This document shows positions 1-53,209 of a DNA stretch of 64,000 bases, piece after piece (position 1 is the stretch's first letter; the number at the start of each line of letters is the position of its first letter). The notes beneath the pieces are model-generated. The model ran no database searches, was not told the origin of the DNA, and was given only the letters and a program-made list of their open reading frames with translations. Made by a program: the position numbers and the translations under genes. The stretch spans positions 104,040 to 168,039 of the forward strand of contig CAYSFB010000004.1 in assembly GCA_964430735.1 (NCBI GenBank), in the 5' to 3' direction. The stretch comes from an uncultured Planctomycetia bacterium (lineage in GTDB: Bacteria > Omnitrophota > Gorgyraeia > 2-02-FULL-51-18 > JAGOUK01).

Positions 1-3000
1 ATCTGGCCGGATTCCAGGAAGTGAACAAGCTCAAAACCCTCAAGGACACGGAAAAAAATATTTCCTTCGAGAAGGCCAACCTCGAACAGGAAAAGCTCCT
101 AGCAGAACTCTCCTCCAAGGGCCTCAAAACACAAGTCGACGAATATCTCGCCGCGACCAAAAAAACCCGTAATCTCCAAGTCTCGCAGAGCGTTCTTCTC
201 GGGAATCTCATGGACTTGGCCAAGTCCCAGAGCATCGACACCGCCTCCTTTGTCGAACTCTCGCGCTACAGCGAGTACCTCAAGTTCTTCAGCGCCCTGG
301 ACCTGGAGCAGGTGATGAAGGAAGTGGAGCTTCTGGAAGACACTGTTTACAAGAACCTGCTTCCGGCCGAAGACGGCCGCAAGCTCCGCGCCGTCGACCG
401 CTTCGTGGGGCTTCTGAACAAGGCCTACCGGATCAAGATGTCCTCGCATGACTTCAGGACCTTGGCTGCCAACAAAGACGACTTCAAGACCGAGGCCTGG
501 GAAGCCTTCCTGAACGATCAGCTCCTGAAGCTCTCTTATTTTGATGATCTGGTTCCGCTGAAGCCCCTTCTGGAAGAAGCGGCCGAGCCCCTGTTCAACT
601 TCTACAAGCTCGTGGATCAGCGCGACGACGCCTTCCTGGAGAATACGGGCCGGATTCTGGAAGAAGAGAACGTCCAGGTCGGCTATCTCATCGCCGGCGG
701 CTATCACACCGAGAACCTGACCCGTCTCTTCAAGAACGAGGGCTACTCCGTCATCGTTCTGACTCCCGTCGTCGAATTCGAAACGGATCAGAAGCTCTAC
801 GAAAAAATGCTCCTCATGCCCTTCATCCTCGCCCAGAGCGAAAAGGAAAAAGAGGAACGCAAGCTGGCCAAAGCGGAAGACCCGGACGCCTCCCGATCGA
901 CGCTCGGGCAAACCCGGATGCTCCAGAGCCCTCTATCTGCTAAGAGAGCGGCCGGCGAGATGGACAGGTCCGGTCTTCCGTCCGAAGTCCTCCTCCTCGC
1001 CGCAAGACTCGCCGCCGAACCTAAACACGAGAATACAAAAGAGACCGTTGCGGAGGTGTTGGATAAATCGCTGGAACAGACTGCGAAAGATATGGTCAGC
1101 AGTTTGGTGTTCGATTCGCTTCAGATGGCTGAACCGCTGGAATATGATCCTGCGAAATTTGCCGAAGATCTGAAAAAGGTCCGGAGGCCGGACGGCGCCC
1201 GGCTGGCGGAGGCCGAAGCCCTGCGAGCCATAATGGCCGGCGAGAGATTTGATCGTCAGGGCCTCCCGGATGAGGCGGTCGAGCTTGCCATGAAACTGCA
1301 TGAAAAACTGACGGACGAAACGGGCCGGATGGACATGGCTCTGCTGTCCGATCTTATCGGTTTTATGCGGCTGATCGCTGATGAGTACACGGCTAATGTG
1401 TATTCGATCGACATGGAGGCGGTTGTAGCCGCGATCGCGAATGAAAACAATCGGATATATGCTTCTTATCCGAAGGAACTGGCGCTCATGAAAAGGCAGA
1501 AGCTGATCGAAATCAGCGAATTCTTGGAGAGCGAACCCGACATAGTTTTTGCCGAGGGACCTTGGAGATATCCGAACTTCAAGTATGGGGTGGTCAGAAT
1601 GCTTGAAAGGGCCGGCCGCGCGGCAGGCTTGGGGCAACGGAGTTCGACGAGCGGCGCTCCCCGCTACAGAAAACTGGTAATCGATTATCTGGCAAAGACC
1701 GGCGAGAGTGCCGCTTTTCAGGAAAAAGTCCTGAAGCTGTACGATCGACTTGACGACCTGGGGCAAAGCGGAGCTTCGTTTGGCCTCTTTCGGAACACTT
1801 TGACGCGTTTTGGATACGCTGCGGAAAAAGGGGACATTCAATTCGAGCTGGACTATTTTGAAGACAGATTTCGATCAGATTACCTCCAAGACGAAGAGGA
1901 GGAAAATGACGAAGAAGACGATGATGCAGATAGAGAAAAAGACGGCGTGAGTCGAAAGAGTTATGCCGAATTGCTTTATGAACATCAGATAGAGCTGCTG
2001 AACCTCTTCGTTTCGCTCACCCACGACGGCACGTCGCCCAAAAAAATCATCCATCTTTTGAATTCATCCATCAGCTACGCTGAAAATGAGCAATCCGCCA
2101 CCGAGTCCGGTCGGTTTGTGAGTCTTTCGCGGTTGCTCGCTTTGGGCGCCGAGTTTTATGGCGCGGACCGCAGGCTCTTGCTGATGCCCTCCTATCTTCT
2201 TACGGAACAGCATGCCTACAAGTGGGGGGTCTTGAGGACGATTGACGGCGAAGCCGTTCGTGCCGGACAGCACTCCACCGAAGTTTACGCGACCCGATGG
2301 ATTCCAAGAGGCTATTTCGGACTGTTTCCCCGCAGGATCAAGATTTTAAAAGTGGGAATTGATACGAGCAACTTCGAGGTGTGGGGCGCCCGGATGGCCA
2401 CCACCCAAGACATCAAGCTCAGCAGCTGGCAGGGCAGCAGCAGCATGCTCAAGATGCCCAACGGCGACATCATCAATCTGAATAAGATCGATGTGAAGAA
2501 GTCCGGCGTCCTGAAGGACGGCCAACTCACCGACGTTCCATACATCAGCTGGAAAGAAAGGGATGTGGTCAGAATCTCCTACGGCCCCAATGCCATCAAC
2601 GCCAAAGCCAACACCGAGTACACCGAGACCTTCCTTCTGACGGAAAGCAATTGGAAGAGATCGAGCTCGGCCTTTTACACCCTTCCCAACGGATTCATCG
2701 TGAACTTGAATAAGATCTCGAAGGAATCCGGTCTAAAAGAAAAAGGGGGTGCCGTTAAAGTTGAACAATACACCCTTTGGCAGAAAGGCCAAACGGTCGT
2801 GGTTCGGTACACGACGGAAGCGGTCGTAGGCATCAAGCTCACCGTAAACAGCGAAAGCTACTTTGATCAGGTGGAAGCGGTGCAAGGCGCCCGGATGGCG
2901 ACTGAATCAGATGCAAAAGCATCCAATGAGCTTGCCGATAAAATTATGGGAATTACCTTGGATCTCGAGAATCCGTGGGAGCAACGGCTCGATGCTATTT

Positions 3001-5237
3001 ACGCTTTGATCCGCGGACTTTCTTATGTCCAAATCGCCGGGTTGCTGCGCGCCTATCGTTCCCACGAGCAATTCACGGCGGATGATCTGCGCCTGGCCAC
3101 GGACAGGGCGATTTACGATACATGGATAGGTCGACGCACCGAGGCGGCTAAGGTTCTTATGCAGGCGAAATATCCTGCACCGGAAGCGGAAAAGATAAGC
3201 CGCATTGTTAGCGAGTTGGTCGAAGTGGCTCTGAGCCAAAAAAGATTACCGCTCATGGAAATCGTTCAGGAGAAACTCGAGGGCTTGAATCTGAGGGAGC
3301 GGAAAGCCGTGCACACCGAATACTACTCTCATTCGAACGATCCAGAGTTCCAACAAAACAACGCTTATTACGTCTTCATCGAACGAATTCTCAGAGAAAG
3401 AGCCGAACCGGCTATGGGAGAGCTGGAAGGAGACTTGATTGCCCCCATCGCGCCCTCGGACGGTTCCCGACTGGCCGCCCCCATTCCTTTTTATGCCGGC
3501 CTTCCCATGCTGCAATCCGTGTCCGGTGATCCCAGGGTATTGATGAACCAGGTGAATGCGCACCCTGATACGAAAGCGTTCAAGCAAGCGCTTGTTATGG
3601 CTATAAAAAATGGGGATTCGCGATTCGTAAAAAGTATGGGGATACCGTTAGGCGAAAATCAGACCCTCCCTGGAAGGTTTGAGATTGTTGGGCAGGGCAA
3701 AAGTCGCAGGCTGATGTATTTCGCTGATCGGGAAGATGGTTATCTGGTCATTTACGAGGCGAACCTTCCTGATGAAATCGATAAGGTCATTGCAAAGGCC
3801 ATCGATGATAAATTTGACTCAATGGATGATGTGATAAACGGATTGATCAAATGGGTCAAAACCGATAATGCCGCCCGGATGGCCACCACCCAAGACATCA
3901 AGCTCAGCAGCTGGCAGGGCAGCAGCAGCATGCTCAAGATGCCCAACGGCGACATCATCAATCTGAATAAGATCGATGTGAAGAAGTCCGGCGTCCTGAA
4001 GGACGGCCAACTCACCGACGTTCCATACATCAGCTGGAAAGAAAGGGATGTGGTCAGAATCTCCTACGGCCCCAATGCCATCAACGCCAAAGCCAACACC
4101 GAGTACACCGAGACCTTCCTTCTGACGGAAAGCAATTGGAAGAGATCGAGCTCGGCCTTTTACACCCTTCCCAACGGATTCATCGTGAACTTGAATAAGA
4201 TCTCGAAGGAATCCGGTCTAAAAGAAAAAGGGGGTGCCGTTAAAGTTGAACAATACACCCTTTGGCAGAAAGGCCAAACGGTCGTGGTTCGGTACACGAC
4301 GGAAGCGGTCGTAGGCATCAAGCTCACCGTAAACAGCGAAAGCTACTTTGATCAGGTGGAAGCGGTGCAAGGCGCCCGGATAGCGGGAATGGAAGGTGTC
4401 ATCCGATTCTTGGATTTCCTGTCGGTCAAATTCGAAGCTGAGACGGTGGTCGAGATCAGCGACGTCGGCGATCTGGCGCTTACGTCCGCGTTGGCGCGCA
4501 GGGGCGCGAATCTGAGAGGCGCGTCCAAGTCGCAGCTCGTGAAGTCGTTCAGTCCTTCGGTCAGCGGGATCACGGATGCATTGGGAATGCCGTTGTCTTC
4601 AGGCGATGCCGGCACGATCCGGACGACGCAAGCCGGCGGTCAAGCCGCATTTGGCATCGTCGGCGCCGGTGATCAGCTCGGGCAGCACAAGACGCTGGCC
4701 CGCGTCATATCCGGTATGGGGGATGCGGAAGTTCCCGTGCTTATCACGGTCAACGGTAAAACGGCCTCCACGATCAGCGCGATGTCGGCCAAGGAATGGC
4801 TGGAGTTCTTTTCTCTGCTCGAAACGCTCGTTGGCGGCAATATCTTCGTCGACATCGATGGGATGGGTGAAAAAGACACCGGACACCTTGCTCCCGAGAA
4901 CTCGCGGCAGGGTATTCTGACCGGAGCTGGACAAGGCGAGCTTCTCCGTCTCGGTCTGGGCGGGGCCACAGCCAGCGACGGGCTTCCGGATCCTCTGGCC
5001 CTTCTCGCATACGGTGTTTTGCTGCAAACGGATCCGGGCACCGAGGTTAGTCTGGCCGACCGTCTCGAACGGGTGCTTCCGGGCTCGACTCCGGACGTTT
5101 TGAGGGCCATACGCCAGCTTGCCGAGCAGCGCCAAAAAGAACTGGTATTGAGTCGTCCCTTCAAAAGCCTGTCCCAAGCAGAGCAGTTCTTCGAAGCCTA
5201 CGCGATCGTGCGGGCTGCGATCGTCTGGGCGGCCTAA
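1..5237 (+). CDS. Giant multidomain protein A, N-terminus outside window. It has the C-terminal half of a TraB/Tiki-like domain, an acidic stretch, and two identical ~166-aa beta-rich repeat modules.
   Basis: The ORF is open from the window edge and the track ORF 21-5237 uses GTG. Residues ~1-280 align with residues ~250-500 of the 2802-aa ORF at 44801, for example YLIAGGYHTENL...VIVLTPVVEFETDQKLYEKMLL against VLITGGYHTDHL...AVITPQVIHETDKRGYERLLL. There is a DEEEENDEEDDDAD acidic patch. No recognisable catalytic domain is present in the remainder. Confidence 0.6.
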   Translation, partial: LAGFQEVNKLKTLKDTEKNISFEKANLEQEKLLAELSSKGLKTQVDEYLAATKKTRNLQVSQSVLLGNLMDLAKSQSIDTASFVELSRYSEYLKFFSALDLEQVMKEVELLEDTVYKNLLPAEDGRKLRAVDRFVGLLNKAYRIKMSSHDFRTLAANKDDFKTEAWEAFLNDQLLKLSYFDDLVPLKPLLEEAAEPLFNFYKLVDQRDDAFLENTGRILEEENVQVGYLIAGGYHTENLTRLFKNEGYSVIVLTPVVEFETDQKLYEKMLLMPFILAQSEKEKEERKLAKAEDPDASRSTLGQTRMLQSPLSAKRAAGEMDRSGLPSEVLLLAARLAAEPKHENTKETVAEVLDKSLEQTAKDMVSSLVFDSLQMAEPLEYDPAKFAEDLKKVRRPDGARLAEAEALRAIMAGERFDRQGLPDEAVELAMKLHEKLTDETGRMDMALLSDLIGFMRLIADEYTANVYSIDMEAVVAAIANENNRIYASYPKELALMKRQKLIEISEFLESEPDIVFAEGPWRYPNFKYGVVRMLERAGRAAGLGQRSSTSGAPRYRKLVIDYLAKTGESAAFQEKVLKLYDRLDDLGQSGASFGLFRNTLTRFGYAAEKGDIQFELDYFEDRFRSDYLQDEEEENDEEDDDADREKDGVSRKSYAELLYEHQIELLNLFVSLTHDGTSPKKIIHLLNSSISYAENEQSATESGRFVSLSRLLALGAEFYGADRRLLLMPSYLLTEQHAYKWGVLRTIDGEAVRAGQHSTEVYATRWIPRGYFGLFPRRIKILKVGIDTSNFEVWGARMATTQDIKLSSWQGSSSMLKMPNGDIINLNKIDVKKSGVLKDGQLTDVPYISWKERDVVRISYGPNAINAKANTEYTETFLLTESNWKRSSSAFYTLPNGFIVNLNKISKESGLKEKGGAVKVEQYTLWQKGQTVVVRYTTEAVVGIKLTVNSESYFDQVEAVQGARMATESDAKASNELADKIMGITLDLENPWEQRLDAIYALIRGLSYVQIAGLLRAYRSHEQFTADDLRLATDRAIYDTWIGRRTEAAKVLMQAKYPAPEAEKISRIVSELVEVALSQKRLPLMEIVQEKLEGLNLRERKAVHTEYYSHSNDPEFQQNNAYYVFIERILRERAEPAMGELEGDLIAPIAPSDGSRLAAPIPFYAGLPMLQSVSGDPRVLMNQVNAHPDTKAFKQALVMAIKNGDSRFVKSMGIPLGENQTLPGRFEIVGQGKSRRLMYFADREDGYLVIYEANLPDEIDKVIAKAIDDKFDSMDDVINGLIKWVKTDNAARMATTQDIKLSSWQGSSSMLKMPNGDIINLNKIDVKKSGVLKDGQLTDVPYISWKERDVVRISYGPNAINAKANTEYTETFLLTESNWKRSSSAFYTLPNGFIVNLNKISKESGLKEKGGAVKVEQYTLWQKGQTVVVRYTTEAVVGIKLTVNSESYFDQVEAVQGARIAGMEGVIRFLDFLSVKFEAETVVEISDVGDLALTSALARRGANLRGASKSQLVKSFSPSVSGITDALGMPLSSGDAGTIRTTQAGGQAAFGIVGAGDQLGQHKTLARVISGMGDAEVPVLITVNGKTASTISAMSAKEWLEFFSLLETLVGGNIFVDIDGMGEKDTGHLAPENSRQGILTGAGQGELLRLGLGGATASDGLPDPLALLAYGVLLQTDPGTEVSLADRLERVLPGSTPDVLRAIRQLAEQRQKELVLSRPFKSLSQAEQFFEAYAIVRAAIVWAA
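2387..2896. repeat. First copy of a 510-bp intragenic direct repeat with perfect nucleotide identity to 3872-4381
   Basis: The same nucleotide string cgcccggatggccaccacccaagacatc...gtgcaaggcgcccggat occurs twice, 1485 nt (495 codons) apart and in frame. It encodes ARMATTQDIKLSSWQGSS...QVEAVQGAR in both copies. Confidence 0.8.
3872..4381. repeat. Second copy of the 510-bp intragenic direct repeat
   Basis: Identical to 2387-2896 at the nucleotide level. Each unit also contains two internal ~25-aa sub-repeats: LKMPNGDIINLNKIDVKKSGVLKDG and YTLPNGFIVNLNKISKESGLKEKGG. Confidence 0.8.
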
Positions 5238-5359
5238 CCGTTCCTCTCTATCGAATCGGCCGTGCGGATTTTCGTTCCGCATGGCTGATTTGATGTATAG
5301 TCAAAATAATTTTGTACTTTCTTCTTGAATTTTTTTTAGAAAAAGCTAACATCTTACGC

Positions 5360-5899
5360 ATGAAACACACACCTCTTACCTTGACCACCCTGACCATCAT
5401 CACGGCCCTCATGCTCGCCACCTCGGGTTGCGGGAAGAAGGCCGAAACCACGGCATCCCTTAACACCACCAGTGACCTCGAAGTTCTCGCCGGCCTCGGA
5501 GAAGGAGCAGGCAGCGCGCAGAATACGGTCGAAATCATTCCCGTGCCTCAGTCCCAGGCGGCCTTCCAGGGCGGCATGGATTCGACTCAGGCCATGATGC
5601 AGCAGGGCATCCAGCAGACCGGCCAGGTCGCGGCCGCCGTTGTCAGTGCCGCGGACGTGAAGCCCGGCACGGTTGAGTACGCCAAGAAGATCCAGACGGC
5701 GCTCAAGAACGCCGGCTTCTACACGGGCAACATCGACGGCAAGCTCGGTCCCAAGTCCAAGGAAGCCATCAAGGCATTCCAGGCTCAGAACGGTCTGAAG
5801 GCCGACGGCGTCGCCGGCGCGCAGACCTGGGCCAAGCTCGGCCAGTACTACACGACCTCGGCAGCAGCTCCCGCCGCCGTTTCGACGATCTCCGAGTAA
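5360..5899 (+). CDS. Lipoprotein with a C-terminal peptidoglycan-binding (PG_binding_1-like) domain
   Basis: The signal peptide and lipobox read MKHTPLTLTTLTIITALMLATSGC. The C-terminus ALKNAGFYTGNIDGKLGPKSKEAIKAFQAQNGLKADGVAGAQTW matches the peptidoglycan-binding repeat. The ATG at 5360 is preferred over the track start at 5312. Confidence 0.6.
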   Translation: MKHTPLTLTTLTIITALMLATSGCGKKAETTASLNTTSDLEVLAGLGEGAGSAQNTVEIIPVPQSQAAFQGGMDSTQAMMQQGIQQTGQVAAAVVSAADVKPGTVEYAKKIQTALKNAGFYTGNIDGKLGPKSKEAIKAFQAQNGLKADGVAGAQTWAKLGQYYTTSAAAPAAVSTISE

Positions 5900-5914
5900 C
5901 GGTCCGTTTCCGAA

Positions 5915-5948
5915 TCCCGGGAGACTTCGGTCTCCCGGGATTTTTTTT
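5915..5948 (+). terminator. Rho-independent terminator
   Basis: A tcccgggagac/ttcg/gtctcccggga GC-rich hairpin is followed by T8. Confidence 0.65.
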
Positions 5949-6052
5949 GCCCTCCGCCCCCGTCCAAAATATGATAAATTAGCCCCTCGACCGGTCTCAA
6001 ACCCCTTAAAAAAGCGCGGCTGTCCGACGGGCGGCCGGATGGTGATTTTTTC

Positions 6053-14605: not shown

Positions 14606-14619
14606 ATACCCGTCTTTCA

Positions 14620-14695
14620 GGGGCTGTAGCTCAATTGGTAGAGCGCTTCGTTCGCAACGAAGAGGTCAGCGGTTCGATCCCGCTCAGCTCCACCA
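14620..14695 (+). tRNA. tRNA-Ala (anticodon CGC)
   Basis: The sequence ggggctg ta gctc aattggta gagc g cttcg ttCGCaa cgaag aggtc agcgg ttcgatc ccgct cagctcc a cca folds as a cloverleaf. A G3:U70 alanine identity pair is present and CCA is encoded. Confidence 0.85.
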
Positions 14696-14716
14696 CTTTA
14701 CCTGTTTGAGGGCGAG

Positions 14717-44482: not shown

Positions 44483-44492
44483 AAAAGAAAAA

Positions 44493-44568
<76 letters not shown>

Positions 44569-44669
44569 TGAAAAAACGGACCTAACTATAACACCCGCTT
44601 CAAATTCCTGTCAACGACCGCTCTGCGTCCTGCGGCGAAAAGAACGTTGAAATAATTGTTAATCGTTAA

Positions 44670-44800: not shown

Positions 44801-47800
44801 ATGCTCTTTTGGGCTCTCTTGCAGTCCACAAGTCTGCTCCGTACTTTAAAACTTCGGATAAGTCGTGCGCGCCGCCGCCGCGTGCCGCTGCGCGCCCTTG
44901 CGCTGGTCCTCGTCCTCGCGCTCGGGTTTGAGGAATGCGCACAAGCGGCTCCGGCGGTGCTTGCGGCCGCTGCGCTCCGTCCGGCCCCGCTTCCCGATTA
45001 CGGTCTTCCGGCGTCCGTCGCAACGGTCGACGACGCGTTTCGGTCGACGGATCCGGATGCGCCCAAAATCCTCCTGGTCCGTGACGCCCACGCCAACCCC
45101 TCCGGACAATTCAATCTGGCGCGCACGCTCGACGCGGTGCTCGAGCGCGAAAATATTTCTGTCGTTTACACCGAAGGCGCCGACCGCGACGTCTCGCTTC
45201 TGTACCTGCGCGATCTGGCCGACCCGTCGGCGCTTGCCCGTGTGGCGAGGGAGTATGTGCATCGGGGCGGGATCAAGGGCAGCGAATATCTGGAGTTGAC
45301 CGGGTCCCGGCGTTTTACGATCCGCGGCGTGGAAGAGGAGCGATTGTACGGAAAGGCGTTGGATGTGTACCGCGGAGTGAGCGCCGCGCGCTCGGACGTC
45401 GGGCGGTTCTTGGCCGAATTGCGCGTGACGGCCGAATTCGTTGAGGATAAAACGCTTCCGGCCGATTTGATCGCCGCGCTCCGGCTGCGCCGGGCGCTGC
45501 GGGAAAAGCGGATCGGGTGGTCGGAATATCTGGACCGGATGGTCGCGCTCAGTCTGAAGCTCGGGCTGACGCTCTCGAATCTGCCGGACCTCGAGGCGCT
45601 CCGCGCGTTGAGGGCGCGGGAGCAGGAGTTGGACGCCGAGGCGGCCGGCCGCGAATGGGATTCCGCGCTCGCCCGCGGCGTCGATCCGGAAAAGGGGTCC
45701 GAAGAATTTCCGCACTTGCGTCGGTACGCGGCTTATAAAAAAATTCTGTCGAACACCCGGTTCCGGCGCCTGACGGCCGATCAAGAAGCGCTGGAACAGG
45801 CTGTGTACGGCGCTCTCGCCGGAAGTGCCGACGAGCTTCAATCGGTCCGCATCGCGCTGGCGATTGAGACGCTCGGTGCGATCGCGGCCATGGAGGCGAC
45901 TCCGGACCAGATCCGCCGTTACCGTTCCGACGCCGAGGCCCACGACCCGGTCCGCATCGCCGCCTGGTTGAACCGGCGGTTGATGCAGTTGGGAACGGGG
46001 CATGAGCGGGCGCTTTTTATGGACGAGGCTTCGACCCGGATCTTGCGGCAGGCGGCCGGTTTTTATCTCACCGCGGATGCGCGCGACCGCGTCTTTGTCC
46101 GCCGCACGCTCCGCCGCATGCAGAGAGACGGGCTCCGGACATCCGTTCTCATCACCGGCGGCTATCACACGGACCATCTCAAGGCCCTTCTCCGGCATCA
46201 GAACATTTCGTACGCAGTGATCACTCCCCAGGTGATCCATGAAACGGACAAGCGGGGGTACGAACGCCTGCTGCTGGGCTCCGACCGCTCCACCCTCATC
46301 CCGCGTTATCACGACAGCCTTCCGGCCGCCGCCCGGCTCCCTCTGATCCGGTCGCTCGGGCTGGACCCGGCGGGTGTCGATGCGGCGCGTCTCGCCCAAT
46401 CATCCGCCGACCGCACGCCGCCGATCGGGACGGTCCGGGAAGGGCTCAACGGTCTGATGCTCGCCGTGAACATTCTCGACCTCGGCATCGAATACCGCTC
46501 GAACCAGCCGCTTGTGAACCGGAATGGTCTGAAAAAACTCAAGGAGCTCATTCCGACCCTGGCGGACATGGGCATCCGCGAGATTTATGTGTACGGTCTG
46601 GCCGAAACGAGCGTGTTGTCCAAACACATCCACCAGGTGCCGACCACCGCGCAATACTTTTTCCACGAAGGCAGCGCCTCGGTGACGGTGGCCCATTACC
46701 CGACGCGGAGCGAGAAGCTGGGCGAGGTGACGCTGCGGGATTCGTGGGGGAATATTTTTTCGATCAATGATATGCGCCGGATCAACCCCATCCTTTCGGA
46801 AGGGGATGCGGAGCAGGACTTGCTCGACGTGACGGCTGCGGCGCAGGCCGCCGGGATCACCGTCGTCGCCGACATGATCAGCTGGCTTTCGCCCGGTGCG
46901 ATCAACAGCTCGAATTACCGGCAGATGTTTTACCGGGAGATCCCGGCCGCCGACAACGAGCGCTTCCGGCAGGTGTCCGATGCCGAAAAGAACGCGTGGA
47001 TCGAGCGGAACATTCTGAGCAAGGATTTGAGGGGGTCGTTTGCGGTCCGCGTGACGGAAGGCGGCGTCGAGCGCATTGTGCTCGTGAAGCATCTCGCGTT
47101 TCACGGGTCCCACAGCGCCGACCAGGCGATTCCGAATCCGCTGCATCCCGCCACGCTGCAGTACTACCTCGACTCCGTCAAAAAGCAGATTGACCGCGGC
47201 ATGAGCGGTCTGCGGGTCGACCTGGGCCACCTTCTGCTCAAGCGCAACATCCGGGGTTACTTCGACGAGATCCGGCACAACGCGGAGGCGTCCGGATCGA
47301 CCATGGAGGAGTGGCTCCGGAACAGCGGCATGGACATCCGTCCCGGCGAAAATTACGAGGCCTGGTGGAGCCGCCAGCCGGAGCCGTGGAGGCAGATCGT
47401 CGACGAAGCCAGTTATTACGCGCTCGAAAAAAACCGGAGCATTCACTTTTATCTGGAGACGTACAACCCGGTCGAGCAGCACGAGTTGTTCAACCTGGGT
47501 GTCGACGGCGCTTACCTCGGAAAGATGTTCGAAGCGAACTACCGCGTCGCCGGCGGAGGATCGCCGCGGGCTTTTGACGACGCGGTGAACGCCGCGCTCT
47601 ACACCCGGCCGCGGTCGCTGATCTACATGACGAACTTCGACCAGATCTCGGAAGAGGCGATGGGCGGTTCCGGCCGCGCCGCGGGGATGCTCCTGGCGAT
47701 TCTGGCCCACGTCGGTTCACCCGCGATTGTCGACTTGAGAGACTTCATGTTCCACCGGGGCCATGTCGCCAAAATCGTCGGCGGCACCCCCGACGCCAAA

Positions 47801-50800
47801 GATCCCCACACCCATCCGTTTCCCACTCACGAGCAGCTCTTGCGCCGGAAGGACTTCGAGGGGATCAAGGCCGAGATCCGGAAGAGCCCTTGGCGCACGA
47901 TTCTTCGGGACTTTTTGAACGCGGTTCCCGGCGACGGGGAAAAGTACGTCACCATCCTCAACAACTCAAACCGCGAGCGGTACTTCACGATCGGCTGGCG
48001 GGCTCAGAACGACCGTTGGGCGATCGCGGTGCTGGACTTCAAGCCGCAGTATGGACGTGATCCGGGGGTGACCGTTCAGCTTCCCAAGAGCGATGATCAA
48101 ACCGGCTTCGACGTTCTGAATTACCGTCCCGTGGAGCTCTCAGGCGCCGAATGCCGAATTTCTAGGTGGGAACCGGGACATCCGGGTTCCCCGGCTGTCG
48201 TCGAAGTCCGGTTCAAGCCCGAAGATGAAATCAAGCCGTACCGATTTATCACCCTGACTCCGATTCATCCCGTGGCCGCCCCGCGCAGGGACGCCAAACC
48301 CTCGCTCGAGAACGCGCTGCGTCAGAATTACATCAAGGGCCGCGTACTGGAGCTGACGCATATCGTCCGCGACGCGGAATTCAAATCGATCCGCCAAAGC
48401 GCGGTATTCTTTTCCCTCCTGGACGACGACTACTTTGTAAGGGCATTTGCGGGCAATCTGCTGGCCGGCCGCGCGCGTCAGGGGTGGGTCGAAGCCGATC
48501 CGACCAAACTGCTCGCTCATCTGCGCGATCCGCTCAAGCCTCTCAAGGAACTCCGGACGCCGCGGATTCCGGGCCGTCAGGACTTCGATCCGATCCGCGC
48601 CCGCCGCAACAGCCGTTACGTCATGCTGTGGGTGCTGGCCAGAATCCTGCAGCCGGACGCCGAAGCCGTGGCCGCCACGATGGGCCGGGACTTGAAGCCG
48701 TACCAGGAGCGTGTCCGCCGGGTTCTGGATCTGCAGCTCCGGCGCGAAGCCGAGTCCTGGGGGCCGGGACATGAGGCGCGGCTGCGCGCGCTGGTCGACA
48801 AACACGACGCGGACCTGGTGCTGGGCGCTCGGCCCGTACTGCCCCCGTTGGAAGTGATGCGGCTGGTGATGCTGAGGGCGCAAAAGGTCGAAGGGTCTTT
48901 GCCGGCCGGACAGCGCGACAATTTTTATTGGGTCAAGCTTGCGGTCGAGCGTGCGTATCCGCAGCGGGAGGACGACCCCGTTTCCGATATTCTTTATGCT
49001 TCGACCGCGGATCCTGGCTCTTCCGGCGCGCGGCTGGCGGACGATCTTAAGGAGAGAGTGGAGCGGATTTTCATGGCGCGGTTGAACCGCGAGTCCGCGA
49101 TCCGGGCGGCCTGGATCCGGGCAGTGCTTTCTTTGAACCCCGCGGTGCTCTGGTTCGTTGGCGGCGTTTCGGTGACCACGATGCAGGATTACCGGGTGGT
49201 CGGAGCGTCGATCTGGGCCGTAGTTTACGGGATCTATCGAGCGAGCTTGAACCGTATCATCGAAGATCCTGTTTTTCATGCGCGTTATCTGGTGTCGCAT
49301 CCCACGGGCGGACAAGACCTGCTTCCGGAGGTGGTCAAGATCCTGGACGGCGCGCGGCTCAGTGCTTTGGATAATTTTGAATCCTTTTATCAAAAGCTTC
49401 GGGCATTGCCCCAGGACGCCACGGCGGAGCAGCTGACAGACGCGATGGATAAGGCGGCGCGGTGGACACGCGGACTGGACGGCATCTCGCTCACGGACGA
49501 CCAGCAGAGGTGGATGTTCTTAAAAGCCAAATTTCTCGCCTTGCAGGCGCAACTGATATGGGAAGCGGCGGATTTGTCTTCCGGCGGCTCGGACAAGGCG
49601 GATCGACTGGATCGTGCTGCCGAGATGTTCCGGTCGGCTGCCGAGCAGCTCGAAAAACACCGGAACCCACTCTACGCCCGCCTTTTGAACGGGTATCAGG
49701 CCGCCGCCAGTCTCGAATCCTTCGTCGCAGGTTACCAGGAGGAGTTGAAGCGGCTCGATGCGGTTGCTGTGACTCCGGAGGCGTTGTCCCGCCGTAGGCT
49801 TTTTAACGACTTCGAATCCAAGGGTCGGTGGCAGCGGGAAATGATCGAGGAGGCCGTTTGGGGAGGAATTCCATTCGTTTCCGATCAGCTTATTGTCCGC
49901 GATAGGATCGCCCGGCGCTTGCATACCGCATTCGAGACGCACCACGCTCTTAAGGCCGAATGGATTCCCAAAGCCAGAGCAGCCGTCGGGCTTCCGCCGT
50001 CCGGTCCGGATCGGATCGTCGATCTTTTGGGAGGGCGACCTGTCAGCCGCAGTATTTCGCGGGAGATGGAAGGTGCCGACCTGGTGTTTTCGTATTTCCG
50101 CAGCATGATGCGGAAAGAGCTCGTAAGCAAAGACATCCGCGATATGAAGCGTGTCCTCATCATCGGCGCGTCCCGTCGCGAGGTGATCGATTGGATCAAT
50201 GCCACGCCGGACACCACCCGGATCACAGCGGTGAACATCGACGGCCGCATGCTCGAAGAAATCGAAAGGCATTTTGTCGAGCATCAGCCCGACGCGCTCA
50301 ACCGGATCGAGATGTTTCGGGCAGACGCCACGCAGCTCGACCCCGCGTATTTCCCGGACGAAACCTACGATTTCATTTACGAGTGGTCGGTCGACCGCAG
50401 CGCCTTCCGGGAGCAGTCGGTGGCCGACCGGGTGTTACCGGCCATCCATCGGGAAGAGACGCGGGTTCTGAAAAAGGGCGGGTATTTATACAAGCTGGTT
50501 ACGGACGATGATTTGTGGGATTTTGACAACCAGCTCGACCGCATCGGCGGCCATCTGTTCATGAAGCCGGCCGCCGGCGCGCGGCTGGCGGATCGCTCCA
50601 GTGTTTTTGAGTTGAATTCCAGGGATACGGGCGAGATCAAGGGTTCGTTCAAGTGGATACAGAAGGCGGACCGGGCGCAGGGGATCATGGAAGACCATTT
50701 GGTATTTTTATGGGCCAATGAACCTTCCGGTCCGCCCGCCCGCTCCGCCGTTTACGATATTTTTGTCATTCCCGTGCGGGAGATTGCGCGCTGGAAGAGC

Positions 50801-53209
50801 ATGGACGGGATACGGGGTTCTTATCAGGGTTGGGCAAATCTTTATTTTGACGCCGACAAGCGGTTGGTGCGGAATCGCGAGGATGCCGTTTGGGGAGGCT
50901 GGGTGACCAAGCGTTCGCGTCTGCACCGATATCCCTGGATCAACGAATTCCTGGTCCGCCGGTTGACCGTGCTGGCGGGGCGTCAGTTGTCGCCGAACGC
51001 TTCGGGAATGGACGACGAAATCGACGGTTTGGACGCATGGCTGGCGTTGACGCCCGAGGAATCCCAAATTCCGATGCGGCTGGACCGGCAGGTGCAGCAA
51101 GAACGCACGGTCGCGGCGATTGAGGCCCTCGAGTCCGACGAACGGCAGCTGGAGTCGTACCCCCGGGCCAAAGCGGAGGCGATTTTCCGAGAGTTGCTGC
51201 GTCAGGTGATCCATTCCGGATCTTATGCCGGTCCCGCTCACGGGATCCCCGCTGCGGACGTTCAAAAAATATCGGAGAATTTGAACGCCGGCGCTTCCAT
51301 TCAGTCATTTTCCGAAGATCTGCTGAACGATCCGGGACTTTCCGTTCAGAGTCGCAACTTGTTCGCGGGCTATCTGATGCAATTCCGGCCGAGGGGGAAA
51401 AATCCTCTGGCGTTTGACGCCGGAAGGCCCCTGTTCCGGTACTACCTCGGGATCGAACCGGCGGCTCCTGACGTTTTTAAAGGGGTTTACCGGTATGTCC
51501 GAGTGATCGGCGCGGGAGCGGAAGGGGTGGTGTTTGAGGTCGCGGACACGCGGTCGGGCCGGACTCTTGCGCTCAAGGTGCTTGCCGGCGGGGGCGCGGG
51601 ACAGGCGGAGACGTTCGCCCGGGCGCTGTCGGGATATTCCGGCGTCGCCGAGATCGTCGAGTATGGGAGCGCCGGCAGATTTGATTACATTGTCCAGGAA
51701 CTTTTGGACGGAGCCGAGATGAGCCACCGCAGCTTTTTGAGCGACCTCGACCGGCTTTATTACAGTCCGGACGAGCGCTTGCAGGTGCTGCTCCGGCTCA
51801 TCGAAGGACTTTCTGAGTTGATGGACCGCGGGATCCTGCCCAAAGATTTTCAATTCATGAGCAAGGCTTCCGCGGGGAGCGCCGACATCAAGTTTTTTGA
51901 CAGCGGCCAATGGATGTTTTTTGGAAGCCCGCAAAGCATCCGCGATTTTGGCGACGACGATCTGGAGGTCTTCACCGCCTCGTTCACACGCTTTTTTGCC
52001 CACCTGCTGCGTTCATCCTCGCGCGATCTCATGGTTGGCCGCTCGCAGGATTCGGAAGCCCTGCGCGCTCTGGTCCTGGAATCGGACCGGATCGAGGCAA
52101 AAATAAAACCGGATGCTCCGTACGACTTCGTTCCTTACATCCGGATGGTCCGCGCGGCCGCGCAGATGACTTTGCAGAATCAGGCGGCGGAAGCTGACTT
52201 TGAAAAAGCTTACCGTAGCTTGGGGATGTACGAACAGATGCGTCTGGACCAATTCGCCGGCCGCATGTCCGACATCACCGCCGTGTTTAAAAACGTGCGC
52301 CTCTACAAGTCGGCGCGTCTCCGCACCGTTTTGGGCGCGCGGCTGGCGCAAGCGGAGGACTTCGGCATATCGGACGAGCGGTTGAGGCCATTTTTGGCGG
52401 CGGTGGCGAGGGCGAAACGTGCCGTGTTGTCGCAGGGTGCAAAAAAGTTCGTGCTCGCGGACGATGAGGGACGGCTCAAGACGATCGTGCTCGGCGCTCA
52501 GGCCGTCACGACCGACAGGATTGCGCCGTCCGAACCGGTTGAAGCGGAGTATGTGCCGCGGTTGTCGGGTGAGCAGGCGGTCGAGCGGGATGCGGAGGTC
52601 TTCGGTCTTTTGGCGGAGATCGCCGACCGCTGGGGTGTGGATCCGACGAATTTTGAGTTTCGATGGGAAGACGTGGCTTCGGGCGCGGACGCAGCGGCGT
52701 TGCCGGCTCTGAAGAAGAGCCTGATCGCGCTTCAGAAAACCGTTCGGAGCAAGGGCTGGGGCGTGTTGCGGATCGCCGGATTCTCGGAGCCGGATCCGAT
52801 CGCGGGAGCGCCCACGACTGCGTTGTGGAACCGGAAACACCCTGGTTGGATGGATGAGCGTATCCGGGCTTCCAGGGCCCATAACGTCCATCTTGCGTTC
52901 GAGCGGGAGGGGGACGAGTCCCTTCCTTATATGAGCGCGATCCTGTTCTCCGGTCTTCTGAGTCATGCGCTTCAGATCCGGGACGCGGCCGAACGCCGGG
53001 AGCGTCTCGCTTCGCTGACTCCGATTTTTAGGAGTCTCACCGGATCCATGCTGTCGTTGACCGACGAGGCGGAGCCCGGCTTCACGGTCTATGAGCCCGC
53101 CAAGTTGAGCGTCTATCCCGCCATCCAACCGCTCACACTGCGCGGATACCTCGACCTCGTCGTTTATCTCCAGAGTCTCTCCCGCGTGTCCGTTTCCGAA
53201 TCCGCGTAA
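44801..53209 (+). CDS. Giant (2802 aa) multidomain protein B: signal-anchor, TraB/Tiki-like domain, GH13-like TIM-barrel module, Rossmann MTase-like module, divergent protein-kinase-like module
   Basis: This is a single uninterrupted ORF with coding-like codon usage throughout. The N-terminus is RRRRVPLRALALVLVLALGF. The motifs LLVRDAHAN...ITGGYHTDHL are paralogous to ORF A at 1-5237. Module-level evidence is given in the findings. Confidence 0.8.
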   Translation: MLFWALLQSTSLLRTLKLRISRARRRRVPLRALALVLVLALGFEECAQAAPAVLAAAALRPAPLPDYGLPASVATVDDAFRSTDPDAPKILLVRDAHANPSGQFNLARTLDAVLERENISVVYTEGADRDVSLLYLRDLADPSALARVAREYVHRGGIKGSEYLELTGSRRFTIRGVEEERLYGKALDVYRGVSAARSDVGRFLAELRVTAEFVEDKTLPADLIAALRLRRALREKRIGWSEYLDRMVALSLKLGLTLSNLPDLEALRALRAREQELDAEAAGREWDSALARGVDPEKGSEEFPHLRRYAAYKKILSNTRFRRLTADQEALEQAVYGALAGSADELQSVRIALAIETLGAIAAMEATPDQIRRYRSDAEAHDPVRIAAWLNRRLMQLGTGHERALFMDEASTRILRQAAGFYLTADARDRVFVRRTLRRMQRDGLRTSVLITGGYHTDHLKALLRHQNISYAVITPQVIHETDKRGYERLLLGSDRSTLIPRYHDSLPAAARLPLIRSLGLDPAGVDAARLAQSSADRTPPIGTVREGLNGLMLAVNILDLGIEYRSNQPLVNRNGLKKLKELIPTLADMGIREIYVYGLAETSVLSKHIHQVPTTAQYFFHEGSASVTVAHYPTRSEKLGEVTLRDSWGNIFSINDMRRINPILSEGDAEQDLLDVTAAAQAAGITVVADMISWLSPGAINSSNYRQMFYREIPAADNERFRQVSDAEKNAWIERNILSKDLRGSFAVRVTEGGVERIVLVKHLAFHGSHSADQAIPNPLHPATLQYYLDSVKKQIDRGMSGLRVDLGHLLLKRNIRGYFDEIRHNAEASGSTMEEWLRNSGMDIRPGENYEAWWSRQPEPWRQIVDEASYYALEKNRSIHFYLETYNPVEQHELFNLGVDGAYLGKMFEANYRVAGGGSPRAFDDAVNAALYTRPRSLIYMTNFDQISEEAMGGSGRAAGMLLAILAHVGSPAIVDLRDFMFHRGHVAKIVGGTPDAKDPHTHPFPTHEQLLRRKDFEGIKAEIRKSPWRTILRDFLNAVPGDGEKYVTILNNSNRERYFTIGWRAQNDRWAIAVLDFKPQYGRDPGVTVQLPKSDDQTGFDVLNYRPVELSGAECRISRWEPGHPGSPAVVEVRFKPEDEIKPYRFITLTPIHPVAAPRRDAKPSLENALRQNYIKGRVLELTHIVRDAEFKSIRQSAVFFSLLDDDYFVRAFAGNLLAGRARQGWVEADPTKLLAHLRDPLKPLKELRTPRIPGRQDFDPIRARRNSRYVMLWVLARILQPDAEAVAATMGRDLKPYQERVRRVLDLQLRREAESWGPGHEARLRALVDKHDADLVLGARPVLPPLEVMRLVMLRAQKVEGSLPAGQRDNFYWVKLAVERAYPQREDDPVSDILYASTADPGSSGARLADDLKERVERIFMARLNRESAIRAAWIRAVLSLNPAVLWFVGGVSVTTMQDYRVVGASIWAVVYGIYRASLNRIIEDPVFHARYLVSHPTGGQDLLPEVVKILDGARLSALDNFESFYQKLRALPQDATAEQLTDAMDKAARWTRGLDGISLTDDQQRWMFLKAKFLALQAQLIWEAADLSSGGSDKADRLDRAAEMFRSAAEQLEKHRNPLYARLLNGYQAAASLESFVAGYQEELKRLDAVAVTPEALSRRRLFNDFESKGRWQREMIEEAVWGGIPFVSDQLIVRDRIARRLHTAFETHHALKAEWIPKARAAVGLPPSGPDRIVDLLGGRPVSRSISREMEGADLVFSYFRSMMRKELVSKDIRDMKRVLIIGASRREVIDWINATPDTTRITAVNIDGRMLEEIERHFVEHQPDALNRIEMFRADATQLDPAYFPDETYDFIYEWSVDRSAFREQSVADRVLPAIHREETRVLKKGGYLYKLVTDDDLWDFDNQLDRIGGHLFMKPAAGARLADRSSVFELNSRDTGEIKGSFKWIQKADRAQGIMEDHLVFLWANEPSGPPARSAVYDIFVIPVREIARWKSMDGIRGSYQGWANLYFDADKRLVRNREDAVWGGWVTKRSRLHRYPWINEFLVRRLTVLAGRQLSPNASGMDDEIDGLDAWLALTPEESQIPMRLDRQVQQERTVAAIEALESDERQLESYPRAKAEAIFRELLRQVIHSGSYAGPAHGIPAADVQKISENLNAGASIQSFSEDLLNDPGLSVQSRNLFAGYLMQFRPRGKNPLAFDAGRPLFRYYLGIEPAAPDVFKGVYRYVRVIGAGAEGVVFEVADTRSGRTLALKVLAGGGAGQAETFARALSGYSGVAEIVEYGSAGRFDYIVQELLDGAEMSHRSFLSDLDRLYYSPDERLQVLLRLIEGLSELMDRGILPKDFQFMSKASAGSADIKFFDSGQWMFFGSPQSIRDFGDDDLEVFTASFTRFFAHLLRSSSRDLMVGRSQDSEALRALVLESDRIEAKIKPDAPYDFVPYIRMVRAAAQMTLQNQAAEADFEKAYRSLGMYEQMRLDQFAGRMSDITAVFKNVRLYKSARLRTVLGARLAQAEDFGISDERLRPFLAAVARAKRAVLSQGAKKFVLADDEGRLKTIVLGAQAVTTDRIAPSEPVEAEYVPRLSGEQAVERDAEVFGLLAEIADRWGVDPTNFEFRWEDVASGADAAALPALKKSLIALQKTVRSKGWGVLRIAGFSEPDPIAGAPTTALWNRKHPGWMDERIRASRAHNVHLAFEREGDESLPYMSAILFSGLLSHALQIRDAAERRERLASLTPIFRSLTGSMLSLTDEAEPGFTVYEPAKLSVYPAIQPLTLRGYLDLVVYLQSLSRVSVSESA

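What the first reader, a model, noticed from the sequence alone, without database searches (positions are those of the whole stretch)
2387..4381. 510-bp perfect (100% nt identity) in-frame direct repeat inside ORF A
Two copies, at 2387-2896 and 3872-4381, are identical at every nucleotide. They are separated by 975 bp of unique sequence, and both encode the same 166-aa module, which is bounded by GARMA...QGAR. Perfect identity over 510 bp in a coding region implies a very recent duplication, ongoing gene conversion, or an assembly artefact. Such repeats are also substrates for RecA-mediated deletion or expansion, which would phase-vary the protein. Each unit contains two ~25-aa sub-repeats (..PNGDIINLNKIDVKKSG.. 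and ..PNGFIVNLNKISKESG..), suggesting an older tandem origin for the module.
Basis: seen in the sequence. Interest (0 to 1): 0.55.

Follow-up and report, generated by a model that had tools for sequence, protein, structure and literature searches.

The report
Duplicated cassette in a modular protein
The perfect 510-base repeat is real in this assembly: one 167-codon building block of a large modular protein was copied to a second place, cut and pasted at a short conserved 'GAR(L/M)A' junction that separates the building blocks in a whole, so far undescribed, family of large Omnitrophota-type proteins.

Summary
Window 2387-2896 and 3872-4381 are identical at all 510 positions, lie 1485 nt apart in frame, and have unrelated flanks. 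It is the only long repeat in the 64 kb.

The ORF is the C-terminal 1744 aa of a 1994-aa protein. That protein has a signal-peptide-like start, a conserved ~520-aa N-terminal domain with TIKI/TraB-like signature residues, and variable "cargo" modules separated by a G-A-R-[L/M/F]-[A/S] motif. This motif is about 26-fold enriched in proteins carrying the N-domain.

The repeat is exactly one motif-to-motif cassette: 501 nt plus a 9-nt microhomology, CGCCCGGAT, inside the motif codons at all four junctions. An independent relative (L009) has a diverged duplication bounded the same way. A second paralog lies at 44801-53209.

Best reading: a very recent cassette duplication by recombination or template switching at the junction-coding sequence. 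The motif plausibly also serves as a proteolytic processing site, which is inferred and not shown.

The cassette has no homolog among 1.84 billion representative proteins, and its fold is unresolved. An assembly chimera cannot be excluded without reads. Phase variation is possible but has no supporting evidence.

The parts
3..5237 (+). ORF A. This is the C-terminal 1744 codons, plus the stop, of the 1994-aa protein P0001. The window starts at aa 251.
3..842 (+). C-terminal part (aa 251 to about 530) of the conserved N-terminal domain. It contains the invariant R457 and G482-G483-x-H485. The D88-x-H90 and E118 residues lie upstream of the window.
999..1013 (+). Junction motif AARLA (aa 583), the first motif after the N-domain.
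1194..1208 (+). Junction motif GARLA (aa 648), coded GGCGCCCGGCTGGCG.
2385..2399 (+). Junction motif GARMA (aa 1045), the left boundary of copy 1. The exact repeat starts at the third base of its Gly codon (2387).
2387..2896 (+). Copy 1 of the exact 510-nt repeat. It consists of the 501-nt cassette plus the 9-nt CGCCCGGAT.
2421..2597 (+). Sub-repeat a of the cassette (aa 1057-1115). The same sub-repeat in copy 2 lies at 3906-4082.
2646..2825 (+). Sub-repeat b of the cassette (aa 1132-1191), 39% identical to sub-repeat a. The same sub-repeat in copy 2 lies at 4131-4310.
2886..2900 (+). Junction motif GARMA (aa 1212), the right boundary of copy 1.
2897..3871 (+). 975-nt unique spacer. It holds two further motif-bounded modules of 192 aa and 136 aa, split by GSRLA at 3462-3476.
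3870..3884 (+). Junction motif AARMA (aa 1540), the left boundary of copy 2. It differs from the copy-1 motif by one base (GCC versus GGC).
3872..4381 (+). Copy 2 of the exact 510-nt repeat.
4371..4385 (+). Junction motif GARIA (aa 1707), the right boundary of copy 2. It differs from the copy-1 motif by one base (ATA versus ATG).
4386..5234 (+). Last cargo module. It has higher G+C (about 0.61) than the rest of the ORF (about 0.52).
44801..53209 (+). Second paralog in the window (2802 aa). It has the same N-terminal domain, then cargo modules (methyltransferase by Pfam; amylase-like and kinase-like only by eye) separated by AARLA and three GARLA motifs. All three GARLA motifs are coded by the identical 15-mer GGCGCGCGGCTGGCG.

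Best explanation
ORF A encodes an exported, modular multi-domain protein. It starts with a signal-peptide-like N-terminus, followed by a conserved ~520-aa N-terminal domain. After that comes a string of unrelated 'cargo' modules, each separated from the next by the pentapeptide G-A-R-[L/M/F]-[A/S].

The 510-nt perfect repeat is one such cargo cassette of 167 codons. It was copied very recently from one junction to another junction 1485 nt away. The join was made by homologous or microhomology-mediated recombination, or by replication template switching, within the junction-coding sequence itself. All four ends of the two copies carry the same 9 nt, CGCCCGGAT, and the only two differences in a 514-nt alignment lie in the motif codons.

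Shown: the repeat; its motif-to-motif boundaries; the family-wide motif and its association with the N-domain; and an independent motif-bounded duplication in a relative.

Inferred: the mechanism and recency of the duplication; export; and that the motif is a proteolytic processing site (P1 L/M/F, P1' small residue), perhaps cut by the TIKI/TraB-like N-domain. If so, the duplication would double the dose of one released 167-aa beta-rich module.
For: The repeat is exact and in frame, and it is the only long repeat in the window. Junction sequences show CGCCCGGAT at 2387, 2888, 3872 and 4373, and both mismatches of the 514-nt alignment fall in motif codons.

The motif [GAS][AS]R[LMI]A occurs 7 times in P0001 and 2-6 times in 7 of the 12 homologs. 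Across the ORFs of 80 related loci it was seen 79 times against 4.3 expected. GAR[LMF][AST] occurs at 0.80 per 1000 aa in ORFs with the N-domain, against 0.03 in all other stop-free segments. GARL is the most frequent 4-mer of the cargo regions.

Modules shared between different proteins end at motifs. P0009 682-1665 matches the second window paralog at 518-1413, and both segments are motif-bounded. HSP ends lie within 15 aa of a motif in 39% of cases against 9% at random, though n is only 18.

In L009, an independent 126-nt repeat at 96% identity runs exactly from GARLT to GARLA. Older dispersed duplications occur in P0003, P0008, P0010, P0013, L060 and L068.

Codon identity among motif copies within a protein exceeds expectation at p <= 0.05 in 10 of 18 proteins. 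This fits recombination at these sites.

Position 4 of the motif is L52/M18/F5/V1/I1 and position 5 is A70/S21/T6/G4, which looks like a protease site.

The N-domain has invariant D88-x-H90, E118, R457 and GGxH485, collinear with PrgY signature motifs in hhalign. It also gives sub-threshold Pfam hits to ChaN of the Tiki superfamily, and weak Foldseek hits to exactly the TIKI-fold structures listed in PMC6254334.
Against: No reads and no independent assembly of this locus were available, so the two-copy arrangement rests on a single contig.

The TIKI/TraB assignment is statistically weak. All Pfam hits are below gathering score, hhalign probabilities are under 1%, and profile searches found nothing in the PDB by sequence.

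There is no direct evidence of proteolysis. Some family members with long cargo have no motif, and the flanks of the motif are only slightly enriched in polar residues.

Zero divergence could also reflect gene conversion rather than recency.
Confidence: 0.62

Rival explanations
1. Assembly chimera. Two co-existing haplotypes carry the same cassette R and spacer B in different module orders, for example ...A-R-B-... and ...B-R-C. The assembler threaded them into one path A-R-B-R-C, so no single molecule carries two copies.
For: The source is a metagenome-derived contig represented once. Repeats of 510 nt exceed short-read k-mers. Module order is evidently shuffled in this family, so such haplotypes are conceivable. 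No independent contig was found to cross-check.
Against: The unique 975-nt spacer is flanked by the repeat on both sides, so a simple collapse or expansion error cannot create this layout; only a two-haplotype chimera could. That chimera would leave extra branches at which assemblers normally break, yet the contig is 238 kb. Both junctions are in frame with intact motifs. A relative from another assembly shows the same kind of motif-bounded duplication. There is no other long repeat in the window.
Confidence: 0.17
2. Old paralogous cassettes kept identical by ongoing gene conversion (concerted evolution), rather than a recent duplication.
For: There are zero differences in 510 nt. The identity stops at the edges of homology, as full-length conversion tracts would. 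Recombination genes (AddAB) are present at 38140-44404.
Against: Other intra-protein duplicates in the family have drifted to 65-96% nt identity, so homogenisation is not the rule. The two mismatches sit exactly in the junction motifs, as expected for crossovers at a pre-existing target motif.
Confidence: 0.12
3. A programmed contingency or phase-variation switch. The repeats are maintained because RecA-mediated deletion and re-expansion of the 1485-nt unit toggles the module content of the protein.
For: The direct repeats are long enough for efficient homologous recombination, and the deletion product stays in frame (established knowledge of repeat-mediated deletion).
Against: No length variants were observed or observable here. 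The family shows duplicates at all ages rather than maintained perfect repeats. There is no associated recombinase or invertible element, and no other long repeats in the window.
Confidence: 0.05

Closest known systems
MARTX toxins and large clostridial glucosylating toxins (autoprocessing multi-effector proteins)
   Same: They are large secreted proteins in which unrelated effector modules are strung together. The modules are released by cleavage after Leu, before a small residue, in segments between modules; examples are EGAL|GED and GGSL|SED (PMC2900308; PMC2780291). Effector content changes by recombination (PMC5555677). One MARTX effector, RRSP, is itself a TIKI-fold endopeptidase (PMC6254334).
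   Different: No C80 cysteine protease domain, RTX repeats or T1SS signal were detected here. The candidate protease is N-terminal and TIKI/TraB-like. The junction is a much more strictly conserved pentapeptide. Cleavage is not demonstrated. The cargo includes housekeeping-type enzymes, and relatives sit in a sugar-metabolism gene context.
Polymorphic toxins with conserved junction motifs (CdiA 'VENN', Rhs 'PxxxxDPxGL'). This comparison rests on the reviewer's own knowledge.
   Same: A conserved N-terminal part is followed by highly variable C-terminal modules. A short conserved peptide, and its coding sequence, marks the swap point and acts as a recombination joint.
   Different: Here there are several junctions per protein rather than one. 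The motif is different. No immunity gene is evident. Modules are duplicated internally as well as exchanged.
Omnitrophota giant 'multi-enzyme' proteins and Archaeovorins (bioRxiv 10.1101/2023.11.21.568195; 10.64898/2026.06.07.730766)
   Same: The likely phylum is the same: most of the best 80 of 303 N-domain hits in GTDB representative genomes are Omnitrophota MAGs or MAGs labelled 'uncultured Planctomycetia'. The long polypeptides tile unrelated enzyme domains such as methyltransferase, GNAT, HEAT, HATPase and sugar enzymes. Repeated domains are the rule. Post-translational cleavage has been proposed, with the cleavage points explicitly unknown.
   Different: These proteins are 1-4 kaa rather than 10 kaa or more. 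The papers name C39 and S8 peptidases and SecA-like domains, and text searches found neither a TIKI/TraB-like N-domain nor the terms searched (motif, linker, cleavage) used for a junction motif. The 2026 preprint finds that recent identical nucleotide repeats are rare, which makes this 510-nt perfect repeat unusual in that context.
TIKI/TraB/PrgY/ChaN/erythromycin-esterase superfamily
   Same: The collinear signature is x-x-[D/E]-x-H at the end of a strand, then Glu 28 residues later, then R-D...G-x-x-H. The predicted core is alpha/beta. The superfamily includes sequence-specific endopeptidases (PMC6254334).
   Different: A helical insert of about 300 aa splits the core. Asp replaces the first Glu. 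No curated model reaches threshold.

Membership tests
TIKI/TraB/PrgY/ChaN/Ere superfamily (for the N-terminal domain) | Catalytic 2His/2Glu-type signature (E-x-H ... E ... H, as in RRSP E3900/H3902/E3930/H4030; PMC6254334) | tested here: met
   D88-x-H90, E118 and H485 are invariant in 66 sequences. The H-to-E spacing is 28 residues, the same as in RRSP. Asp stands in place of the first Glu. hhalign pairs IQDAH with VGTAH, LAEG with CLEW, and QRD..GGYH with ERD..GQAH of PrgY.
TIKI/TraB/PrgY/ChaN/Ere superfamily (for the N-terminal domain) | Significant match to a curated family model (PF01963, PF04187 or a related model) | tested here: not met
   PF04187 is hit by only 3 of 13 members, with best E = 3.8e-5 and 20.5 bits against a cut-off of 27.7. 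PF01963 gives E = 0.11. Constructs limited to the core do no better. NCBIfam gives nothing.
TIKI/TraB/PrgY/ChaN/Ere superfamily (for the N-terminal domain) | Alpha/beta TIKI fold with a parallel beta-sheet core | tested here: inconclusive
   The AlphaFold model (pLDDT 85) has a beta-alpha-beta core interrupted by a helical insert of about 300 aa. Foldseek gives only weak local hits, but they are to HopBA1 (5T09), ChaN (2G5G) and Bcr135 (3B55), which are the TIKI folds named in PMC6254334.
MARTX / CGT autoprocessing toxins | Inositol-phosphate-activated C80 cysteine protease domain | tested here: not met
   There are no Pfam or NCBIfam hits in ORF A or in the second paralog.
MARTX / CGT autoprocessing toxins | Processing after Leu, before a small residue, between effector modules | not testable with these tools
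   Only the sequence pattern (P1 L/M/F, P1' A/S/T/G) and its inter-module position are shown. Cleavage itself needs proteomics.
Polymorphic toxins (CdiA/Rhs type) | Conserved N-terminal region, variable C-terminal modules, conserved junction peptide used as a recombination joint | tested here: met
   Homologs share only the first 550 aa or so. Cargo is almost entirely unrelated between members. The junction motif is conserved, with codon identity above expectation.
Polymorphic toxins (CdiA/Rhs type) | Known junction motif (VENN, PxxxxDPxGL), cognate immunity gene, and a T5SS, T6SS or T7SS delivery domain | tested here: not met
   There are no such Pfam domains. The downstream gene at 5354-6658 is on the opposite strand and has no family match.
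Omnitrophota giant proteins (Archaeovorin / multi-enzyme class) | Length of 10-30 kaa or more, with N-terminal C39 or S8 peptidase or SecA-DEAD domains | tested here: not met
   The proteins are 1994 aa and 2802 aa, and none of these domains is present.
Omnitrophota giant proteins (Archaeovorin / multi-enzyme class) | Omnitrophota origin, with tiling of unrelated enzyme domains | tested here: inconclusive
   Among the best 80 of 303 N-domain hits in GTDB representatives, most are Omnitrophota MAGs or MAGs labelled 'uncultured Planctomycetia'. The taxon of the window itself could not be determined. The second paralog tiles methyltransferase (Pfam) and amylase-like and kinase-like (by eye) modules.
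Repeat-mediated phase-variable (contingency) gene | Population-level length polymorphism at the repeat | not testable with these tools
   No reads were available, and no second contig of the locus was found.

The most novel reading that the evidence does not exclude
G-A-R-(L/M/F)|(A/S) is the long-sought processing site of a class of Omnitrophota polyproteins. Under this reading, an N-terminal TIKI/TraB-like hydrolase, fused to the cargo or encoded just upstream, cuts exported multi-module precursors into individual enzymes or effectors. The 15-nt junction coding sequence (consensus GGCGCGCGGYTGGCG) doubles as the recombination joint by which cassettes are duplicated and swapped. The 510-nt perfect repeat would then be a freshly caught example of that cassette copy-paste.
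Probability: 0.3. Interest if true: 0.8.

Novelty: new variant of a known kind. Interest (0 to 1): 0.6.

Why it matters
An intragenic duplication is ordinary on its own. This one matters because its breakpoints expose the unit of construction of a large, unannotated protein family. That family has 303 hits in GTDB representative genomes, mostly Omnitrophota-type MAGs, and no Pfam or NCBIfam model.

Work on Omnitrophota giant proteins has proposed that they are cut into pieces, but states that the cleavage points are unknown (bioRxiv 10.1101/2023.11.21.568195). A strictly conserved inter-module pentapeptide that looks like a protease site, tied to a conserved N-terminal hydrolase-like domain, gives a concrete and testable candidate.

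It also offers a way to cut these proteins informatically into modules for structure prediction. Finally, it suggests how new module combinations arise: recombination at a 9-15-nt junction sequence.

Tried and rejected
1. Homologs of the 170-aa cassette. The word-indexed search found none. Exhaustive phmmer against 1.84 billion representatives found only the protein itself and P0014. P0014 is a low-complexity Ig-like repeat protein whose E-value is inflated by 11 repeats, so I judged it spurious. PDB sequence searches of the cassette and of all the cargo gave nothing.

2. Fold of the cassette. Single-sequence AlphaFold gave pLDDT 48. Foldseek on that model returned only meaningless hits to two-domain small beta-barrel proteins. 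The fold remains unassigned.

3. Independent copies of the locus. The exact-protein look-ups failed. Close-relative scans of genome contigs and metagenome contigs found nothing. The assembly therefore could not be cross-checked.

4. The idea that the L/M position is an internal NTG start codon, so that the modules are separate genes. The Leu codons are 82% TTG or CTG, which prompted the idea. It was rejected because Val (GTG) is almost absent (1 case) while Phe occurs 5 times. That pattern points to selection on the amino acid, not the codon.

5. PDB sequence-profile searches with the N-domain, using 13 sequences, 66 sequences and a core-only alignment, gave no TIKI hit. A whole-model Foldseek search is dominated by the helical insert.

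6. A de novo search for an alternative junction motif in family members that lack GARLA found nothing convincing.

7. The 85-nt inverted repeat at 14615-14699 and 44489-44573 is just two tRNA-Ala genes.
Full report
**1. Observation**

Window 2387-2896 and 3872-4381 are identical at all 510 positions, and this is the maximal exact match. The offset of 1485 nt is a multiple of three, and both copies lie in one open reading frame. Sequence on either side is 17-42% identical in 60-nt windows, which is unrelated. No other repeat of comparable length exists in the 64 kb, and only one short tandem array was found elsewhere.

The frame has no stop between position 3 and 5237, so the gene runs off the left end of the window. 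The complete product is in the protein collection as P0001, 1994 aa, seen on one NCBI contig of 238 kb. The window starts at residue 251.

The cassette contains an older internal duplication. Two segments of about 60 aa at a 76-aa period are 39% identical, E = 2e-7, with a 33-nt core at 79% nt identity.

**2. What the gene is**

Pfam and NCBIfam find nothing in ORF A. The homologs found with the whole protein are 1.2-3 kaa proteins that share only the first 550 aa or so. Everything downstream is unrelated.

A profile of this N-terminal domain finds 303 places in GTDB representative genomes. Among the best 80, most are MAGs labelled Omnitrophota or 'uncultured Planctomycetia', with single Elusimicrobiota and Ratteibacteria records. 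Several genomes hold multiple paralogs.

The window itself holds a second paralog at 44801-53209 (2802 aa). Its N-domain is 27% identical to that of ORF A in alignment A2, and its cargo includes a methyltransferase domain by Pfam, plus amylase-like and kinase-like regions judged only by eye.

About half of the relatives fuse the domain to more than 1000, and up to more than 3300, aa of cargo. In many of the others the domain is a separate 500-620-aa gene, and in several of these it is followed immediately on the same strand by a giant ORF. This is a fusion/fission link between the domain and the cargo.

The N-terminus of P0001 has basic residues, a hydrophobic stretch, then AFA|GP. It reads as a Sec signal peptide, and the pattern recurs in homologs. 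This is inferred from the sequences and was not tested with a predictor.

**3. The junction motif**

The edges of the repeat are 'GARMA'. Scanning shows that [GAS][AS]R[LMI]A occurs 7 times in P0001 and 2-6 times in 7 of the 12 homologs found with it. It occurs 4 times in the second window paralog. Across the family ORFs of the 80 loci it was seen 79 times against 4.3 expected from composition.

With the refined pattern GAR[LMF][AST], the density is 0.80 per 1000 aa in ORFs that carry the N-domain. It is 0.03 in all other stop-free segments of the same loci and the window. The only two 'other' ORFs with two or more motifs run off the start of their contig, so they are probably the tails of upstream family members. 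GARL is by far the commonest 4-mer in cargo regions: 63 occurrences in 27.8 kaa, against about 8 for ordinary 4-mers.

By position, G, A and R are nearly fixed. Position 4 is L52/M18/F5/V1/I1, and position 5 is A70/S21/T6/G4.

Modules shared between different proteins end at motifs. The clearest case is a ~900-1000-aa module shared by P0009 (682-1665) and the second window paralog (518-1413), both bounded by motifs within about 10 aa. Overall, 39% of HSP ends fall within 15 aa of a motif against 9% at random, but n is only 18.

The motif therefore delimits the evolutionary units of these proteins. Its flanks are only slightly enriched in polar residues, so 'unstructured linker' is weakly supported.

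**4. Anatomy of the duplication**

P0001 reads as follows:
- N-domain
- AARLA583
- 65-aa module
- GARLA648
- 397-aa module
- GARMA1045
- R (the duplicated 167-aa cassette)
- GARMA1212
- 192-aa module
- GSRLA1404
- 136-aa module
- AARMA1540
- R (167 aa)
- GARIA1707
- 287-aa module

The motif-to-motif period is 501 nt. The exact repeat is 510 nt because it begins and ends with the same 9 nt, CGCCCGGAT, which lie inside the motif codons. Extending to 514 nt adds only two mismatches, GGC/GCC and ATG/ATA, both in motif codons.

Two point mutations falling in the 19 motif-edge positions and none in the ~495 interior positions would be unlikely by chance (roughly 0.001, my estimate). The differences more likely reflect the sequence of a pre-existing target motif (A-A-R-I-A), with the crossovers inside the motif.

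An independent case supports this as a recurrent process. In L009, a 126-nt repeat at 96% identity, 1614 nt apart, runs exactly from GARLT to GARLA. Older dispersed or tandem duplications occur in P0003, P0008, P0010 (61 aa, 95% identical overall, 2186 aa apart), P0013, L060 and L068 (65-77% nt identity). This shows that duplicates normally diverge.

With 0 differences in 510 nt, the upper 95% bound on divergence is about 0.6% (rule of three).

**5. Nucleotide-level peculiarity**

Codons in the motif are biased towards GGC GCG CGG YTG GCG. For example, CGG makes up 52% of Arg codons in the motif against 22% in the background, and TTG or CTG make up 82% of Leu codons against 40%. Within a protein, motif copies share codons more often than codon usage predicts, at p <= 0.05 in 10 of 18 proteins. 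The three GARLA motifs of the second window paralog are coded by one identical 15-mer.

This fits recombination occurring preferentially between nucleotide-identical junctions, which keeps them alike. A separate DNA- or RNA-level function is not excluded. I considered internal NTG start codons and rejected the idea, because Val is almost absent and Phe is present at that position.

**6. The N-terminal domain**

With a 13-sequence alignment, AlphaFold gives pLDDT 85: a beta-alpha-beta core split by a helical insert of about 300 aa. Invariant residues in 66 sequences are D88, H90, Q96, E118, G153, G169, Y176, Y339, R457, G482, G483, H485 and P505.

The pattern is [D]-x-H at a strand end, Glu 28 residues later, then R-D and G-G-x-H. 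This matches the 2His/2Glu signature described for TIKI-family enzymes: RRSP has E3900, H3902, E3930 and H4030, with the same 28-residue H-to-E spacing (PMC6254334). It is also collinear with the GTAH / LE / ERD...GQAH motifs of PrgY from pCF10, and hhalign chooses exactly those pairings, though at negligible probability against a single sequence.

Pfam gives sub-threshold hits to PF04187 (ChaN, Tiki superfamily) in 3 of 13 members, best E = 3.8e-5, and to PF01963 at E = 0.11. Foldseek's weak local hits include HopBA1 (5T09), ChaN (2G5G) and Bcr135 (3B55). These are the structures that PMC6254334 names as TIKI folds.

Profile searches of PDB sequences found nothing. I therefore treat the assignment as likely (about 0.65) but not established.

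**7. Mechanistic reading**

Shown: a motif-bounded cassette is present twice; the breakpoints lie in the junction codons; and the motif is specific to N-domain proteins and delimits the modules.

Inferred: the duplication arose by recombination or template switching at the junction sequence. The two 510-nt copies can now recombine to delete or expand a 1485-nt in-frame unit (established behaviour of long direct repeats; AddAB genes lie at 38140-44404).

More speculatively, the motif's residue pattern (large hydrophobic residue, then a small one) resembles the inter-effector sites of MARTX and clostridial toxins, such as EGAL|GED, with cleavage exclusively after Leu (PMC2900308, PMC2780291). 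Together with its exclusive association with a hydrolase-like domain, this suggests a processing site. If so, the duplication doubles the output of one 167-aa beta-rich product.

Three things count against the processing idea. Cleavage is unproven. Some long family members lack the motif. And in a distant subgroup the gene context is sugar catabolism (NagA-like amidohydrolase, ROK, GH94) rather than anything toxin-like.

**8. Artefact question**

No reads or independent contigs could be obtained.

The unique spacer is flanked by the repeat on both sides. A simple collapse or expansion error cannot generate that layout; only a chimera of two haplotypes with different module order could. Such a chimera would normally break the contig. 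I put this at about 0.17.

**9. Literature**

Two preprints on Omnitrophota giant proteins describe multi-enzyme tiling and frequent repeated domains. They propose cleavage by C39 or S8 peptidases, and one states that cleavage points are unknown. The more recent one reports that recent identical nucleotide repeats are rare.

My text searches of both papers found no mention of a TIKI/TraB-like N-domain and no passage describing a junction motif. A full-text search for 'GARLA' returned only surnames in the rows shown. Absence from these sources is not proof of novelty.

**10. Verdict**

The added value is the context. The repeat is a freshly duplicated cassette in a motif-delimited modular protein family that appears to be undescribed.

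Noticed in passing
window 44801-53209 (+): This is a second, 2802-aa member of the same family, with the same N-terminal domain (27% identical in alignment A2). Its cargo modules (methyltransferase by Pfam; amylase-like and kinase-like by eye) are separated by AARLA and three GARLA motifs. All three GARLA motifs are coded by the identical 15-mer GGCGCGCGGCTGGCG. Its first module is homologous to a motif-bounded module of P0009.
   Followed up: partly
motif codons in window ORF A, in the second paralog, and in loci L009, L012, L014, L015, L016 and L036: The junction motif shows codon bias towards GGC GCG CGG YTG GCG across different genomes, and codon identity within a protein is above expectation. 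It is not known whether this reflects a DNA- or RNA-level signal (for example Chi-like; AddAB is in the window) or homogenisation by recombination.
   Followed up: partly
L009 15620-15745 and 17234-17359: An independent dispersed repeat of 126 nt at 96% identity lies inside a family member of more than 3800 aa. It runs exactly from a GARLT motif to a GARLA motif.
   Followed up: yes
loci L028, L049, L058, L059, L067, L070: Stand-alone N-domain genes are followed directly on the same strand by giant ORFs (over 900 to over 3200 aa). In L058 and L059 the giant ORF is in the same frame, after a single stop codon. This could be readthrough, recoding, a sequencing error or true fission. These cargos lack the GARLA motif.
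   Followed up: partly
L059 3498-9557; L070 5182-7611: In the distant subgroup, conserved genes lie upstream of the N-domain gene: an amidohydrolase (NagA-like), an unknown gene, a ROK gene and a GH94 phosphorylase. The downstream giant ORF carries a SIS domain. This suggests a sugar-metabolism context.
   Followed up: partly
window 1-4400 versus the rest: ORF A up to about 4400 has G+C of 0.52-0.54. Its last module has 0.61 and the window as a whole about 0.60. The compositionally atypical cargo and N-domain may have been acquired or shuffled recently.
   Followed up: no
P0010 aa 729-789 and 2915-2975: An Elusimicrobia family member (MBK8574972.1) carries a 61-aa segment repeated at 95% identity overall (100% over the last 39 aa), 2186 aa apart, without GARLA motifs.
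   Followed up: no
window 14620-14695 (+) and 44493-44568 (-): Two tRNA-Ala genes (anticodons CGC and GGC) account for the only long inverted repeat in the window. tRNA-Leu and tRNA-Ala sit just upstream of the second paralog.
   Followed up: yes
window 30667-30762: A 33-nt tandem repeat is present, 2.9 copies at 87% match. It is in frame by period, and its context was not examined.
   Followed up: no
window 5354-6658 (-): A 434-aa ORF lies immediately downstream of ORF A on the opposite strand and has no Pfam match.
   Followed up: no
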